A stretch of 64,000 nucleotides of DNA. Source: Candidatus Micrarchaeota archaeon (GTDB lineage Archaea > Micrarchaeota > Micrarchaeia > Norongarragalinales > Norongarragalinaceae). Position numbers and translations under genes: made by a program. This document shows, one piece after another, positions 29,759-35,687 of this stretch. The stretch is from positions 64,001 to 128,000 of the forward strand of contig JACQQD010000001.1 of the NCBI GenBank assembly GCA_016207165.1. Reading direction: 5' to 3'. How positions within the stretch are numbered: position 1 is the stretch's first letter; each line of letters begins with the position of its first letter. The notes under the pieces are model-generated. The model did no database searches and was not told the origin of the DNA. It saw nothing but the letters and a program-made list of their open reading frames with translations.

Positions 29759-29831
29759 GGGTCCGTAGTCGAGTGGTTAAGACATCTCCTTTACGAGGAG
29801 AGGATCCCCGGTTCGATTCCGGGCGGGCCCA
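29759..29831 (+). tRNA. tRNA-Val(TAC)
   Basis: GGGTCCG/CGGGCCC acceptor stem; TCTCC-tttacga-GGAGA anticodon arm; TTCGATT T-loop. Confidence 0.95.
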
Positions 29832-31727: not shown

Positions 31728-34508
31728 ATGCGTTTCGTTCCGGCGCTCTGTTTTTTCCTGGCCTTGGTTACGGCCGTTTCCGCTTCGCCTTTGGATGACG
31801 TGGCCGTGCATGCGGCCCAATACGAGCGGGGGGAAACCAGTTTTCTCCAACTCAAGGTGTTGCTGGTGGAAAGCCGCGACGAATTGATGCGGTCCGTGGA
31901 ACGCGACTTGGTCCAAGTCAACCCCGATGACGAGCATTTCCGGGGCTGGCCGAAAGAAGCGGCGGAACGCATCTTGGGCGAACCCACGCGTGTGGAGCAA
32001 TGGGTGTGGATTGAAAACCTCCAGGAAAGCCGTTTTGTCGTTGAAGGCCAGCCCGCGTGGGACCGGGTTTTGTTTGATGGCGAGAAACTGGAGGTGCGCG
32101 TGCGCGCGTTTCCCCATGCCATTGAACAGGGTAACCAATTGCTGCCGTTTTACTGGATTGATTTTGACACGACCTTGAAAACTTCGGAGCCGGATGTCGA
32201 CGTGTTGGCGGAGTTGGAGGCGTTGCGCGTCATGTTTTCGCTGTACCAGCAAACCGGCCAGGGCTTGCCGGACATTGCGAAGAAAGCCGTGGGTTTCGAG
32301 CGGTCGTTTCACGACCGCGATTTTTCCGCGGCCTCTTGTGAGGCGTCTTTGTCGGAACTCTTCAAGCAGTCCCTGCAAGCCGAGGAGCGCCTCATTTGGC
32401 GGGGTCTCTTGTATCAAGGCGCCGACGGGGCGCTTTGGTTGCAGGTCGACGAGCGGCAAAACGAGAACTGGCATGGATTGGACTCGTGGGTGGAAGTCAA
32501 CGTCAATTATCCGTACCACGATGTTCGAGGGGTGGACCGGGAATCCTTCAAAACCCGTCCGGCGTCGGAGCTCTTGGCGTTGTGGAAACAACATGTCGCG
32601 GCGCTTGAACAAAACGGGCCTTCGGATTCAGGTTTTGCGCGTCGCGTGTCGGAAGTCAACGCGTTGGGAAACGTGTTATCCGAGAAAGCCAACGATGTTG
32701 CCGACCCATTCACCGTTGAACAATGGCAGGCGGAACTAGAGTCCGCGTTTGACGCCTACACCACCGGCTTTTCGAAAACCCTGGTGCGCGAGAAAAACGT
32801 GCACATCGCTTTGTTGTCCATGAACCAGACCCGTTCGAACTCCTATTGCCAGCCCGAACACCAGGAATGCGGGTTTTCGGACCGCTGCGAGAACGCGCAA
32901 TGCGTGTTGGACCCCAGTCGCGGACCCCCAGAACCCGAGTTTGAACCTCCGGAATTCGTGGAACCGGTTCCGCCTATTGAACTGCCAGCGCCCGTGTCGG
33001 AACCCGTTGGTTCCGCGCCCACGGAAAACCCCTCGCTTTCGCCGACTCCGTCTGGTTCCCCGGCTGCAAGCCCGACGCCTTCCGTTGAACCCAGTGCCTC
33101 GCCGTCTCCGAGTCCCTCTGCGAGCCCAAGCCCGTCTCCGTCCGCGGAACCATCGTCTTTACCTAGTCCATTTCCAAGTCCGTCGCCCGCCGCCAACTTG
33201 TCCGCCCCAAGACTCTTCACGGGTTTTCTGACGCTTTCGGTTCCCGAAGAACCGGTGAGCTGCAATGCCAACCAGGTGTTCAACCCGGAATTCGGTCACT
33301 GCACGTGTTCCGCAGGATTTTTTGACTGCGACGGGGACTGGATTAACGGCTGCGAGTCGACGGTACAATGTCGTGAGTGTCAAGCGGACGCGGATTGCGC
33401 GCTGGCGCGCTGCGACGGCGACTATTCCACGGTCCGGTTCGTCTGCCGTTCAGGCGAGGCGTTTCAAGAACAGGTGGCGGCCGCGGAATTCGGCGCTTTT
33501 TGCCGGGAGGGCGTTGCGCGCGACGAATTCGGCGCGTGGGTCAGTGCATGGGGCGAAGGGTTCGAGTCCTTTGACCGGTTCAAGCAGGACGCGTGGAACG
33601 AAACGGAGAACCAGTGGTGCCAGCAGGAATTTGAATCGGCTCGGCTGGAGCGCTTGGCGTTGCAGGAAAGTTTGAACGACGAGTTCTTGACGTGGTTTTT
33701 CTCGGAGTTCGTGGACGAAAACGCCCGCGACTTTGAATCGCACGGCCGGTCGGTGCACGCCGTTTTTGACGCACTTCAAAGCGTGAACAGCGAATTGGCG
33801 CGCAGCATGGGCTGCTTGAAAATGACGGAATTGCCCGCCGAATTCAAGCCGGTATCCGTTTCCTTTGATTCCTTGGGGGGCGACGTGACGATTTGGGAAG
33901 AAGTCAAAACCGATGAAGAATTCGGGGAAGGAAAAACGCCCGTGATTTCCCCCTACGTGAAGATGTGGTTTTTCCCGCCCAAGGAAGAGTTCAAGAAGAT
34001 CTTCACGGAAAAAGTCAAGGAAAACTTTGTCGGCCCCACGCCGTCGGAAATCCAGTTCATCCGCCAGGACGAACAAGCCATGGCGAAAATCCGGAGCATT
34101 GCCAACGCGTTTGGCGGCGACGCCCGCATCGTCTTGGAGGTGCGCGACGGCGATGAAGTGGTATTGCGCAATTACAACGTGATCAACGAACGCGACGTCA
34201 TGAAAGTCTCTTTCGTGGATGAAGCGCCGCCGGACGCCAAAGTCACTTTGGTCATCGAATTTGACTTTTTGTATTCCATGATGGAAACCATCATCAAGGA
34301 TTTGGAGGGCGCCCGCACCCAGGGCCCGTGGTGGGAGGACCAATCCGAGCGGCCCCACGAATTCAACGAGGACCTCATCCCCATTCGCATGTTCTTGGGT
34401 TTGGTCGCCGGCATCTTCACCGGCGACATTCAAGTCCAGCCCGTCGACCAACTGCCGGCTGTAATCAGCGTGATTTCGGAATTGATGCAGGTCATGCCGA
34501 AACAGTAG
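31728..34508 (+). CDS. large secreted protein with Ser/Pro linker and Cys-rich module
   Basis: Signal peptide; (SP)n tract; CDGDWINGCE module. Confidence 0.8.
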   Translation: MRFVPALCFFLALVTAVSASPLDDVAVHAAQYERGETSFLQLKVLLVESRDELMRSVERDLVQVNPDDEHFRGWPKEAAERILGEPTRVEQWVWIENLQESRFVVEGQPAWDRVLFDGEKLEVRVRAFPHAIEQGNQLLPFYWIDFDTTLKTSEPDVDVLAELEALRVMFSLYQQTGQGLPDIAKKAVGFERSFHDRDFSAASCEASLSELFKQSLQAEERLIWRGLLYQGADGALWLQVDERQNENWHGLDSWVEVNVNYPYHDVRGVDRESFKTRPASELLALWKQHVAALEQNGPSDSGFARRVSEVNALGNVLSEKANDVADPFTVEQWQAELESAFDAYTTGFSKTLVREKNVHIALLSMNQTRSNSYCQPEHQECGFSDRCENAQCVLDPSRGPPEPEFEPPEFVEPVPPIELPAPVSEPVGSAPTENPSLSPTPSGSPAASPTPSVEPSASPSPSPSASPSPSPSAEPSSLPSPFPSPSPAANLSAPRLFTGFLTLSVPEEPVSCNANQVFNPEFGHCTCSAGFFDCDGDWINGCESTVQCRECQADADCALARCDGDYSTVRFVCRSGEAFQEQVAAAEFGAFCREGVARDEFGAWVSAWGEGFESFDRFKQDAWNETENQWCQQEFESARLERLALQESLNDEFLTWFFSEFVDENARDFESHGRSVHAVFDALQSVNSELARSMGCLKMTELPAEFKPVSVSFDSLGGDVTIWEEVKTDEEFGEGKTPVISPYVKMWFFPPKEEFKKIFTEKVKENFVGPTPSEIQFIRQDEQAMAKIRSIANAFGGDARIVLEVRDGDEVVLRNYNVINERDVMKVSFVDEAPPDAKVTLVIEFDFLYSMMETIIKDLEGARTQGPWWEDQSERPHEFNEDLIPIRMFLGLVAGIFTGDIQVQPVDQLPAVISVISELMQVMPKQ

Positions 34509-34621
34509 CTTGCATTCTTGATGTGGCTCCTGACTCCAAAGCCCTTTTAAACCAATTCTTGCAAACCTTCTTCCTTGGGTTTGGCGGTGGCCGCTTCGCG
34601 GAAATCGTTCGACCTCAAGAT

Positions 34622-34819
34622 GCCGCTGTAGCTCAGCCTGATCGTTTAAACCCGGTTCGGGTTTAAGGCGAGGCTATGGAGAGCGTTCGATTTTCCTGAT
34701 GAGTTTTCATCCGGGAAAGACGAAGCTGAAGACCTGTCCTAGGCAGAAACCGATAGGAACCTGGCCCGTTTGGGTTTGGTTCTCGGTAAGTGCCGTGAGT
34801 TCAAATCTCACCAGCGGCA
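34622..34819 (+). tRNA. tRNA-Phe(GAA) with four introns (34641-34677, 34690-34724, 34732-34748, 34755-34789)
   Basis: Exons join to a 74-nt cloverleaf GCCGCTGTAGCTCAGCCTGGGAGAGCGTTCGGCTGAAGACCGATGTGCCGTGAGTTCAAATCTCACCAGCGGCA; BHB motifs at the junctions. Confidence 0.88.
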
Positions 34820-34901
34820 TTTTTCTTTTCTATTCTATTTTTGGTTTGCCGGTCCAAGCTTATTCTAACCTTTTTATGGTTTGGCGACGTATTTTTTCGT
34901 C

Positions 34902-35687
34902 ATGGCGAATCGTCAAACGGCTTTGATCACCGGCGCGTCCAGCGGCATCGGCTTGGAGTTGGCCAAGGTGTTTGCAGGACACGGGTATGCCTTGGTGTTG
35001 GTGGCGCGTTCGAAAGACGCGTTGGAAAGGGCGGCTGCTTTTCTTCGATCCGAGTTTGACGTAGCCGTTTTCGTGGTGGCCTTGGATTTGTCGGATTCGT
35101 CGGCGCCCAAACGGCTTTTTGACGTGTTGAAGAAAAAGCGGATTGCCGTGGACGTGTTGGTTAACAATGCGGGGTTCGGCTTGCACGGCGAGTTTGTGGA
35201 CACGGATTTGAAGACGGAGTTGTCCATGATTCAAGTCAACGTGTCGGCGTTAACCGCGCTTTGCAAGTGGTTCGTCGGCCCCATGGCCCAAAAAGGTCGC
35301 GGCCGGATTCTCAACGTGGCCTCCACCGCCGCGTTTCAACCCGGTCCCTTCATGGCCGTCTATTATGCGTCCAAGGCGTATGTGCTTTCTTTTTCCGAGG
35401 CGTTGTCCGAGGAACTCCGTGGAACCGGGGTGACGGTGACGGCGTTGTGTCCGGGCCCCACGCGCACGCAATTCCAGCGCCAGGCCCGACTCGGTACCAA
35501 CCGACTTTTTTCAGGTCCCTTGGTCATGGATGCCTCGGACGTGGCGCGCATTGGTTTCAAGGCGTTGATGCGGGGAAAGCCGGTGGTCGTGACGGGTTTT
35601 TTGAACAAGTTGTTTTCGGAGGCCGTGCGTTTTACGCCGCGTCGCGTGGTGCGGCGGTTGGTGCGCAAGGTTCAAGAACGACGTTGA
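34902..35687 (+). CDS. SDR-family oxidoreductase
   Basis: TGASSGIG, NNAGFG, YYASK. Confidence 0.95.
   Translation: MANRQTALITGASSGIGLELAKVFAGHGYALVLVARSKDALERAAAFLRSEFDVAVFVVALDLSDSSAPKRLFDVLKKKRIAVDVLVNNAGFGLHGEFVDTDLKTELSMIQVNVSALTALCKWFVGPMAQKGRGRILNVASTAAFQPGPFMAVYYASKAYVLSFSEALSEELRGTGVTVTALCPGPTRTQFQRQARLGTNRLFSGPLVMDASDVARIGFKALMRGKPVVVTGFLNKLFSEAVRFTPRRVVRRLVRKVQERR

What the first reader, a model, noticed from the sequence alone, without database searches (positions are those of the whole stretch)
34622..34819. tRNA-Phe(GAA) split by four introns, implying ordered splicing
Seen: exons of 19, 12, 7, 6 and 30 nt join into a normal archaeal tRNA-Phe with one U27-U43 mismatch. Introns of 37, 35, 17 and 35 nt sit at about 18/19, 30/31, 37/38 and 43/44. 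Introns 1, 2 and 4 have clear bulge-helix-bulge cores (AGCC/GGCT, CGTT/GACG, ACCG/CGGT with 3-nt bulges); intron 3 has a relaxed motif. Known: to my knowledge up to three introns per tRNA is the commonly described archaeal maximum. Inference: intron 3 needs the anticodon stem, which forms only after introns 2 and 4 are removed. Standard scanners probably miss this gene.
Basis: partly seen in the sequence, partly recalled or inferred. Interest (0 to 1): 0.85.

Follow-up and report, generated by a model that had tools for sequence, protein, structure and literature searches.

The report
tRNA-Phe gene with four introns
This is a real phenylalanine tRNA gene of a tiny groundwater archaeon that is cut into five pieces by four short introns, one more than reviews give as the archaeal maximum, and relatives carry none to four of them at the same sites.

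Summary
Confirmed. Window 34622-34819 (+) holds five exons (19, 12, 7, 6, 30 nt). Joined by coordinates, they give a 74-nt tRNA-Phe(GAA) that ARAGORN accepts. It matches an intronless tRNA-Phe of a family relative at 68 of 74 positions. ARAGORN and the Rfam tRNA model miss the unspliced gene.

Introns 1, 2 and 4 have strict 3-4-3 bulge-helix-bulge (BHB) motifs. Intron 3, at 37/38, has a relaxed one.

In the 68 genomes of the same order I could read tRNA-Phe in 57:
- 30 with no intron
- 18 with one
- 4 with two
- 3 with three
- 2 with four (this genome and G015, another genus)

The introns recur at 18/19, 30/31 and 37/38, with compensatory changes in the BHB helices.

The genome encodes a three-unit EndA that matches PDB 4fz2 over its full length (E 1.9e-120), plus RtcB and PheRS. 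I found no second tRNA-Phe.

Ordered splicing, with 37/38 last, fits the pairing analysis but is not shown: no RNA data exist. The idea is already in print.

The "maximum of three" is stated in 2014 and 2021 papers. An October 2026 preprint reports up to five in Asgard archaea. This is an extreme new member of a known kind.

The parts
34539..34551 (+). promoter-like box (AAAGCC followed by TTTTAAA), 71-77 nt upstream of the mature 5' end
   Evidence: The same AAAGCC-TTTAAA type box lies 30-38 nt upstream of tRNA-Phe in 9 relatives' loci printed. Reading it as a BRE/TATA promoter is my inference from recalled archaeal promoter rules.
34622..34640 (+). exon 1 (19 nt): acceptor 5' strand, D-stem 5' strand, D-loop up to G18
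34641..34677 (+). intron 1 (37 nt) at 18/19. Strict hBHBh': central helix AGCC/GGCT, bulges TG|A and AT|G, outer helix CTC/GAG
   Evidence: the BHB is part of the minimum-free-energy fold. An intron sits at the same site in 13 genomes, with 51 of 52 central-helix cells paired and one double compensatory change.
34678..34689 (+). exon 2 (12 nt): G19 to G30
34690..34724 (+). intron 2 (35 nt) at 30/31. BHB with central helix CGTT/GACG (one G.U), bulges CG|A and AA|G, 6-bp inner helix, 2-bp outer helix
   Evidence: An intron sits at the same site in 13 genomes, with 52 of 52 central cells paired and a GC-to-AT compensatory change in G015. The BHB register costs 3.3 kcal/mol above the minimum-free-energy fold.
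34725..34731 (+). exon 3 (7 nt): G31 to G37, holds anticodon GAA
34732..34748 (+). intron 3 (17 nt) at the canonical 37/38 site. Relaxed motif: 3-bp central helix CTG/CAG, 3-nt 3' bulge, 4-nt 5' bulge, 3-bp inner hairpin
   Evidence: The identical 17 nt occur in G002. 6 of 8 relatives' 37/38 introns show the same 3-of-4 pattern.
34749..34754 (+). exon 4 (6 nt): A38 to U43
34755..34789 (+). intron 4 (35 nt) at 43/44. Central helix ACCG/CGGT, bulges AT|A and AA|G, 6-bp inner helix, weak outer helix
   Evidence: central-helix probability 0.94-0.99 in every intermediate that still holds it. A counterpart exists only in G015, at 44/45.
34790..34819 (+). exon 5 (30 nt): variable loop, T arm, acceptor 3' strand, discriminator A73; CCA is not encoded
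34820..34842 (+). T-rich tract directly after the gene, a likely transcription stop
   Evidence: Sequence; similar T-rich tails follow the gene in relatives. The function is inferred.

Best explanation
This is the working, and apparently only, tRNA-Phe(GAA) gene of a small-genome archaeon. The organism is probably a Micrarchaeota-like DPANN lineage; that placement is inferred, not tested with marker genes.

The gene is transcribed as a precursor of about 200 nt or more that carries four bulge-helix-bulge introns at 18/19, 30/31, 37/38 and 43/44. The organism's three-unit (epsilon2-type) splicing endonuclease cuts each intron inside the two bulges, and RtcB joins the exons.

Introns 1, 2 and 4 each fold into their own local BHB in the primary transcript and can be removed independently. 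The BHBs of introns 2 and 4 are built from the two strands of the future anticodon stem. That stem is the outer helix of intron 3's weak motif, so it exists only after both are out and re-ligated. Intron 3 (37/38) is therefore most likely removed last. This order would also keep the 7-nt and 6-nt mini-exons attached throughout.

Shown: gene anatomy, BHB motifs, their conservation and covariation, and presence of the enzymes.
Inferred: transcription, the exact cut register, and the order of removal.
For: - The joined exons are called tRNA-Phe(gaa) and are 68/74 identical to an intronless ortholog.
- Strict BHB at introns 1, 2 and 4, relaxed at intron 3.
- The same three sites are occupied in relatives: 13 genomes at 18/19, 13 at 30/31 and 8 at 37/38. 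Exons are conserved, intron interiors diverge, and the helices carry compensatory changes.
- G015, in another genus, also has four introns.
- EndA is one 428-aa ORF aligned to residues 14-387 of 395 of PDB 4fz2 at E 1.9e-120. The listing names the source of that fourth-type enzyme as Candidatus Micrarchaeum acidiphilum. The enzyme type is reported to cut relaxed BHBs (PMC3239211 passages). A match to this EndA (E <= 1e-10), near full-length in most, was found in 65 of 68 genomes of the order.
- RtcB and PheRS alpha are present.
- No second tRNA-Phe: a BLAST of an intronless Phe gave 3 matches in G000, and the other two belong to a Lys-type and an Ile gene. The two ARAGORN 'Phe(aaa)' calls are Arg(GCG) and Pro(CGG). 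A 14-nt anticodon-arm match on C5 lies in non-tRNA sequence.
- The gene sits in a gap between ORFs, with a promoter-like box and a T tract.
- Order of removal: intron 3's outer helix is 1 bp before and 4 bp after removal of intron 2. Intron 4's central helix holds 38-41 with probability 0.94-0.99.
- In C. merolae the anticodon-arm BHB was always processed last (PMC3728597 passages).
Against: - There is no RNA evidence of any kind, so transcription, splice junctions and order are untested.
- The genome is about 90% complete, so an intronless copy could lie in unassembled DNA.
- The product has a U27.U43 mismatch, though the G024 ortholog has the same one.
- Intron 4 allows a second BHB register (CCGA/TCGG, the register used in G015). 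It would give a 76-nt product with a 7-nt variable loop. I reject it only because every Phe ortholog printed shows a 5-nt variable loop.
- RNAfold does not favour the BHB register of intron 2 (probability about 0, +3.3 kcal/mol) or that of intron 3 (+4.1 to +8.5 kcal/mol).
- An enzyme that accepts motifs lacking an outer helix might cut intron 3 early.
- The flanking genes showed no synteny with 12 relatives' loci at 1e-5.
- For G015 my search ranks a 3-intron parse with anticodon TCA slightly above the 4-intron Phe parse (23.5 against 22.5). I prefer the Phe parse on homology alone.
Confidence: 0.85

Rival explanations
1. All four introns are real, but they are removed in no fixed order: the broad-specificity endonuclease cuts intron 3 whether or not the anticodon stem has formed.
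For: The epsilon2 and (alpha-beta)2 enzymes are reported to accept motifs with 1-4 nt bulges or lacking one helix (PMC3239211 passages). Intron 3 keeps a 3-bp central helix and a 3-bp inner hairpin in every intermediate. All four motifs can be enforced together at +10 kcal/mol.
Against: Before intron 2 is removed, the outer helix of intron 3 is a single base pair. Two of its three central pairs use C32 and U33, which also form the outer helix of intron 2. Intron 4's helix occupies 38-41. Cutting intron 3 early would leave a 7-nt exon held by one or two pairs. In C. merolae the anticodon-arm motif was always last (PMC3728597).
Confidence: 0.3
2. The locus is a decaying or silent copy, and the working tRNA-Phe is an intronless or less interrupted gene in the roughly 10% of the genome that was not assembled.
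For: Completeness is 90.2%. No RNA run is available. There is a U27.U43 mismatch. The promoter-like box is about 40 nt further upstream than in relatives.
Against: All stems and the T and D loop signatures are intact. All four splice motifs are intact. The 18/19, 30/31 and 37/38 introns are shared with relatives in which this is also the only Phe gene I found. A second genus keeps a four-intron version. U27.U43 also occurs in G024's two-intron gene.
Confidence: 0.07
3. The gene is real but one or more splice registers differ from the predicted ones. Examples: intron 4 cut in the CCGA/TCGG register, or intron 1 cut one base further in on each side. The mature tRNA would then differ by 1-2 nt in the variable loop or D-loop.
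For: Both alternative registers satisfy my BHB rules. Searches list the intron-1 alternative at equal score. The intron-4 alternative follows from the 5-bp ACCGA/TCGGT helix seen in the minimum-free-energy fold, and G015 uses that register.
Confidence: 0.1
4. The locus is an assembly artefact or a chimera of tRNA fragments.
For: The source is a metagenome-assembled genome, and unitigs break inside the gene in three of four runs.
Against: One contig of run X2 spans 34400-34991 with 0 differences, and overlapping contigs of X3 cover the whole gene. Independent genomes G002 and G015 show the same layout.
Confidence: 0.01

Closest known systems
Multiple-intron tRNA genes of Thermoproteales (Pyrobaculum, Thermofilum, Caldivirga and relatives)
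   Same: [quoted passage not shown] A host endonuclease with broad specificity. Introns placed so close together that one must be removed before the next motif can form (PMC8450103 passage; PMC4033280 passages).
   Different: Those papers give three as the maximum per gene; this gene has four. [quoted passage not shown] The intron transposition described there has no counterpart here: none of the four introns has a similar copy elsewhere in this genome.
Disrupted tRNA genes of ARMAN-2 (Candidatus Micrarchaeum acidiphilum) with epsilon2 EndA
   Same: The endonuclease architecture is the same: E 1.9e-120, aligned over residues 14-387 of 395 of 4fz2. Many tRNA genes are interrupted at non-canonical sites, including T-loop introns (PMC3239211 passages; for this genome).
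   Different: The passages I read mention a tRNA with two introns in the T-loop. None mentions three or four introns in one gene.
Heavily interrupted tRNA genes of Asgard archaea (Atabeyarchaeia, Freyarchaeia and relatives)
   Same: More than three intervening sequences in one tRNA gene: 'up to five in a single gene' (bioRxiv 10.64898/2026.10.13.758758, passage). Over half of the tRNA genes have multiple introns (PMC11291895 passage).
   Different: It is a different archaeal lineage, with a two-paralogue (alpha-beta)2-like EndA. There almost all tRNA genes are interrupted. Here the other 31 genes that my search resolved and ARAGORN accepted carry 0 or 1 intron, and tRNA-Phe is a lone outlier. 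The preprint has no occurrence of DPANN, Micrarchae- or ARMAN.
Ordered processing of multi-intron pre-tRNAs in the red alga Cyanidioschyzon merolae
   Same: Several BHB introns in one pre-tRNA are removed in an order, and the anticodon-arm motif is always last (PMC3728597 passages).
   Different: That is a eukaryotic nucleus with at most three introns, and the order was shown by RT-PCR. Here the order is only predicted. It would be enforced by mutually exclusive pairings rather than by motif stability alone.

Membership tests
Archaeal BHB-intron-containing tRNA gene | Joined exons fold into a canonical cloverleaf with a sense anticodon | tested here: met
   ARAGORN calls the 74-nt product tRNA-Phe(gaa) with 7/4/5/5-bp stems and one U.U mismatch. 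It is 68/74 identical to an intronless ortholog.
Archaeal BHB-intron-containing tRNA gene | Each intron is bounded by two 3-nt bulges on opposite strands, 4 bp apart (or an accepted relaxed form), with the cuts falling at the exon ends | tested here: met
   Introns 1, 2 and 4 pair 4/4 central positions, with inner helices of 6 bp as counted by the script. Intron 3 pairs 3/4 with a 4-nt 5' bulge, within the relaxed forms described in PMC3239211.
Archaeal BHB-intron-containing tRNA gene | The splice motifs are conserved by compensatory change in relatives | tested here: met
   18/19: 13 genomes, 51/52 central cells paired, one CG-to-TA double change. 30/31: 13 genomes, 52/52 paired, one GC-to-AT double change, and the inner helices vary while staying paired. 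Intron 4 has only two genomes, so the test is not informative there.
Archaeal BHB-intron-containing tRNA gene | The host encodes a splicing endonuclease able to cut non-canonical and relaxed motifs, and an RNA ligase | tested here: met
   EndA has PF01974 and PF02778 domains and matches 4fz2 over its full length. RtcB PF01139 scores 479 bits. Activity of this particular enzyme was not tested.
Archaeal BHB-intron-containing tRNA gene | The precursor is transcribed and the mature tRNA carries the predicted junctions | not testable with these tools
   Only DNA runs hold the locus.
tRNA-Phe isoacceptor | Anticodon GAA, discriminator A73 and G20 (identity elements as I recall them, from no call) | tested here: met
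   All three are visible in the joined sequence and in the ARAGORN drawing. PheRS alpha is present.
Obligately ordered multi-intron splicing | One intron's motif cannot form until others are removed | tested here: met
   In silico only. Intron 3's outer helix is 1 bp before and 4 bp after removal of intron 2. Intron 4's central helix uses positions 38-41, and intron 2's uses 25-28.
Obligately ordered multi-intron splicing | Only the predicted processing intermediates are found in cells | not testable with these tools
   No RNA data.

The most novel reading that the evidence does not exclude
Micrarchaeota-like archaea with the three-unit endonuclease are gaining tRNA introns now. The fourth intron was acquired separately, at neighbouring bonds (43/44 and 44/45), in two genera, and it is still polymorphic in the sampled groundwater population. 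The anticodon-stem 3' strand would then be a hot spot where a new BHB can be built. The lineage, with 0 to 4 introns in one orthologous gene, would be a natural time series of intron gain. It would also show an obligatory splicing order that protects 6-7-nt mini-exons.
Probability: 0.25. Interest if true: 0.7.

Novelty: new member of a known kind. Interest (0 to 1): 0.55.

Why it matters
Two widely used sources say archaeal tRNA genes hold at most three introns (PMC4033280, 2014; PMC8450103, 2021). This gene and its G015 counterpart hold four. They occur in a DPANN-type lineage, whereas the only report of more than three that I found is a 2026 preprint on Asgard archaea.

In practice, ARAGORN and Rfam miss the gene. 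An automated annotation built on those two tools would report this genome as lacking tRNA-Phe; tRNAscan-SE 2.0 could not be run here.

In biological terms, one orthologous gene carries 0, 1, 2, 3 or 4 introns across 57 related genomes, at fixed sites. That gives a compact system for studying intron gain and loss. It also offers a natural substrate with 6-nt and 7-nt exons for testing how the epsilon2 endonuclease and RtcB keep order.

Tried and rejected
- RNA evidence: the look-up of sequencing runs listed 4 runs, all DNA, from one groundwater study; no RNA holder was listed. Read laying therefore speaks only to the DNA.
- Sugahara 2007 (PMC1852824) is not held, so its statements on multi-intron tRNAs are cited only through other papers.
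- Literature searches for a four-intron archaeal tRNA found none. The only 'four introns' hit, in PMC3728597, refers to four introns located in T-loops across several genes.
- Second tRNA-Phe: rejected.
- A fifth intron in the leader, suggested by a second GCCGCT at 34590-34595: rejected, because the flanks are not complementary (my reading of the sequence).
- Intron copies elsewhere in the genome (transposition): blastn-short found only self hits at E<0.05.
- Synteny of the flanks with 12 relatives' loci: no tblastn hit at 1e-5.
- My first BHB search used lax filters and produced hundreds of false parses. I replaced it with a scored version.
- The scored search left about ten G000 loci unresolved (ARAGORN -i structures). 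It also failed on G037, G060 and G029. The 'three introns' count for G037 and G060 rests on the spliced alignment plus my manual reading of a 65-nt T-arm insertion.
- The 11 order genomes without a readable Phe gene are G005, G009, G012 (stretch reads N), G016, G020, G028, G044, G048 (contig end), G049, G059 and G061. They are excluded from the 57.
- Class-wide pattern scan (401 genomes): 5 hits, of which 3 are not four-intron Phe genes. The pattern needs exact exon strings, so it undercounts.
- The bacterial-type promoter and terminator scan found nothing and does not apply to archaea.

Full report
**What is there.** I joined the exons by coordinates inside a script. The 74-nt product is called tRNA-Phe(gaa) by ARAGORN, with a 7-bp acceptor stem, 4-bp D stem, 5-bp T stem and a 5-bp anticodon stem whose only flaw is U27.U43. 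CCA is not encoded.

The unspliced gene is invisible to three scans:
- ARAGORN with or without its intron mode;
- the Rfam tRNA model at gathering score and at E<=1 over the genome;
- all Rfam models at E<=10 on a 441-nt slice.

The gene fills most of a gap between a 961-aa ORF that ends at 34508 and an ORF that starts near 34881.

**Is it more than chance?** Four lines say yes.
- The product is identical at 68 of 74 positions to the intronless tRNA-Phe of G021 and at 67 of 74 to that of G033.
- The 198-nt precursor folds to -87.8 kcal/mol against -62.6 +/- 4.4 for shuffles: z = -5.77, with 0 of 200 shuffles as stable.
- I wrote a search that starts at T-arm-like anchors and walks leftwards, allowing jumps over BHB-compatible introns. 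A first lax version gave hundreds of false parses, a warning that five free jumps can make almost anything look like a tRNA. The scored version gave 33 solutions over the whole genome, 32 accepted by ARAGORN. It gave none at 56 anchors in reversed copies of four contigs.
- At this locus it returns the four-intron Phe parse and no ARAGORN-accepted parse with three or fewer introns (7 solutions examined).

**The DNA is sound.** A contig of an independent run spans 34400-34991 without a difference. No run shows an intron-less joint. All four runs are DNA and come from one groundwater study.

**The splice motifs.** I use the rule that the enzyme cuts between the second and third base of each 3-nt bulge. 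I derived this from the canonical 37/38 case; the rule itself is recalled knowledge.
- Intron 1: outer helix CTC/GAG, central helix AGCC/GGCT, bulges TG|A and AT|G, and an inner stem. This exact motif is part of the minimum-free-energy fold.
- Intron 2: central helix CGTT/GACG (one G.U), bulges CG|A and AA|G, a 6-bp inner helix and a 2-bp outer helix. RNAfold prefers a shifted continuous helix, and the BHB register costs 3.3 kcal/mol.
- Intron 4: central helix ACCG/CGGT, bulges AT|A and AA|G, a 6-bp inner helix and almost no outer helix. Its central-helix probability is 0.94-0.99.
- Intron 3, at the canonical site, is relaxed. C32-U33-G34 pair with CAG near the intron's 3' end, A35 is unpaired, so the 5' bulge has 4 nt, and a 3-bp hairpin follows.

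Two register ambiguities remain.
- Intron 1 could be cut one base further in on each side, giving an 11-nt D-loop.
- Intron 4 could use CCGA/TCGG, giving a 7-nt variable loop.

**Relatives.** The order that holds this genome has 68 genomes in the collection. From BLAST with an intronless Phe, spliced alignment and BHB checks I could read a tRNA-Phe gene in 57 of them.

| Introns | Genomes |
|---|---|
| 0 | 30 |
| 1 | 18 |
| 2 | 4 (G024, G027, G004, G011) |
| 3 | 3 (G002, G037, G060) |
| 4 | 2 (G000 and G015) |

Eleven genomes gave no readable gene; they are listed under Tried and rejected.

Within the genus of G000, G001 has only the 18/19 intron. G002 has the 18/19, 30/31 and 37/38 introns, and its 37/38 intron is identical to that of G000. 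G015 belongs to another genus of the same family. It has introns at 18/19, 30/31, 37/38 and 44/45, the last in the CCGA/TCGG register. For G015 my search ranks an alternative three-intron parse with anticodon TCA one point higher. I prefer the Phe parse because its exons match those of the relatives.

Across genomes the motifs hold up:
- the 18/19 motif pairs in 51 of 52 central-helix cells (13 genomes), with one double compensatory change;
- the 30/31 motif pairs in 52 of 52 (13 genomes), with a GC-to-AT double change in G015;
- the inner helices change sequence while staying paired.

A pattern scan of 401 genomes of the class for the intron 3 plus intron 4 layout hit 5 genomes. Only G000 and G015 are four-intron Phe genes. 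The pattern is strict, so this undercounts.

**The rest of this genome.** Of the 32 ARAGORN-accepted genes that my search resolved, 20 have no intron, 11 have one, and only tRNA-Phe has more than one. One search adds tRNA-Gln(CTG), with one 46-nt intron in the T arm. Roughly ten further loci flagged by ARAGORN -i or Rfam were not resolved by my script. ARAGORN's own structures show single insertions of 31, 44 and 75 nt in the three whose intron lengths were printed (Cys, Lys, Tyr). tRNA-Phe is thus a lone outlier, not one case in a uniformly shredded set.

The two 'tRNA-Phe(aaa)' calls of ARAGORN -i are tRNA-Arg(GCG) and tRNA-Pro(CGG). A 14-nt match to the Phe anticodon arm on C5 lies in non-tRNA sequence. 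I found no second tRNA-Phe, but the assembly is 90% complete.

**The machinery.** One ORF on contig C4 (428 aa from the first start) carries the tRNA_int_endo and tRNA_int_endo_N domains. It aligns with residues 14-387 of the 395-residue chain 4fz2_A at E 1.9e-120. The paper listing ties the fourth, three-unit EndA type to Candidatus Micrarchaeum acidiphilum (ARMAN-2). [quoted passage not shown]

A match to this EndA (E <= 1e-10) was found in 65 of 68 genomes of the order, near full-length in most and partial or in pieces in about ten, at 54-81% identity. RtcB and PheRS alpha are present.

I infer a Micrarchaeota-like DPANN archaeon from the enzyme, the 0.4-1.8 Mb genomes of its order and class, and the groundwater source. 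I ran no marker-gene taxonomy.

**How it most likely works.** Introns 1, 2 and 4 each form a local motif in the primary transcript, and all three can be enforced together at +4.4 kcal/mol.
- The motif of intron 2 uses positions 25-28 as its central strand.
- The motif of intron 4 uses positions 38-41.
- Together these are the two strands of the future anticodon stem.

That stem is the outer helix of intron 3's weak motif. It counts 1 bp while intron 2 is in place and 4 bp once it is out. It also competes with intron 4's very stable helix. Intron 3 should therefore be cut last.

A second argument is my own inference. Exon 3 has 7 nt and pairs with the body of the tRNA through G31 alone. If intron 3 were cut before exons 2 and 3 were ligated, that exon would be lost.

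None of this is shown. RNAfold does not favour intron 3's motif in any intermediate (+4.1 to +8.5 kcal/mol). A broad-specificity enzyme may not need the outer helix.

**Comparison with what is known.**
- Multi-intron tRNA genes, relaxed BHBs and their link to broad-specificity endonucleases are well described. PMC4033280 speaks of 'a maximum of three introns'.
[quoted passage not shown] - Ordered removal with the anticodon-arm motif last was shown by RT-PCR in C. merolae (PMC3728597).
- A preprint of October 2026 reports up to five intervening sequences in one tRNA gene of certain Asgard families. It has no occurrence of DPANN, Micrarchae- or ARMAN.
- PMC11291895 reports 228 introns in three Asgard genomes, with per-gene numbers only in a supplement that I could not open.
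- My four searches for a four-intron archaeal tRNA found nothing else.

**Verdict.** The gene is an extreme new member of a known kind: four BHB introns in one tRNA gene, in a lineage with the three-unit endonuclease. It comes with a rare within-family series from zero to four introns. The claim of a record is weakened by the 2026 Asgard preprint. The ordered-splicing idea is sensible, already in the literature as a principle, and untested here.

Noticed in passing
G000:C9:93630-96344 (outside the window): RtcB lies in one 963-aa open frame, with about 1.35 kb inserted between Pfam RtcB profile positions 50 and 48. This looks like an intein.
   Followed up: no
window 34738-34745 against 34636-34640 plus 34678-34680: Intron 3 is complementary over 8 bp to the D-loop sequence that becomes contiguous once intron 1 is removed. 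RNAfold prefers this pairing to the cloverleaf in the last intermediate. It could be chance, a misfolding trap or a checkpoint.
   Followed up: partly
window 34539-34621: The promoter-like AAAGCC-TTTTAAA box is 71-77 nt upstream of the tRNA, against 30-38 nt in nine relatives. The longer leader holds a second copy of the first six bases of the tRNA at 34590-34595. I saw no BHB there.
   Followed up: partly
window 34726-34755: Run X4 holds a 252-nt contig that is identical over these 30 bases and then diverges right after the first base of intron 4. This suggests a co-occurring strain with a different intron 4 or a different insertion there.
   Followed up: no
L026, L032 (tRNA-Phe of G046, G038) and L047, L049-L053 (family f10): T-loop introns of 85 and 136 nt in tRNA-Phe, and several insertions in a tRNA with anticodon GTA, carry similar hairpins of the form CTTTTCTTTT..AAAAGAAAAG. 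This may be a mobile intron family in that family of genomes.
   Followed up: no
G000:C1:33951-34054 and G000:C12:130940-131051: ARAGORN's intron mode calls both loci tRNA-Phe(aaa). With BHB-guided splicing they are tRNA-Arg(GCG) and tRNA-Pro(CGG), each with one intron of 30 or 39 nt.
   Followed up: yes
G000:C7 near 25089 and G000:C6 near 120659: tRNA-Gln(CTG) has a 46-nt intron inside the T arm. tRNA-Leu(GAG) seems to break off after the T-loop in the same way, but my script did not resolve it.
   Followed up: partly
L006 and L009 (G015, G019); window 29759-29831: tRNA-Val(TAC) lies directly upstream of tRNA-Phe in G015, and the near-identical upstream flank in G019 suggests the same there. 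In this genome the two are 4.8 kb apart with a 961-aa ORF between them.
   Followed up: no
G015:C23 and C8; G037:C26; G066:C46: The three-unit EndA appears in two pieces in these genomes: on two contigs in G015 and as adjacent pieces in G037 and G066. This could be assembly breaks, frameshifts or genuinely split genes.
   Followed up: no
L054 (G218:C3): A tRNA-Gly(TCC) of another family in the class carries a single 130-nt intron.
   Followed up: no
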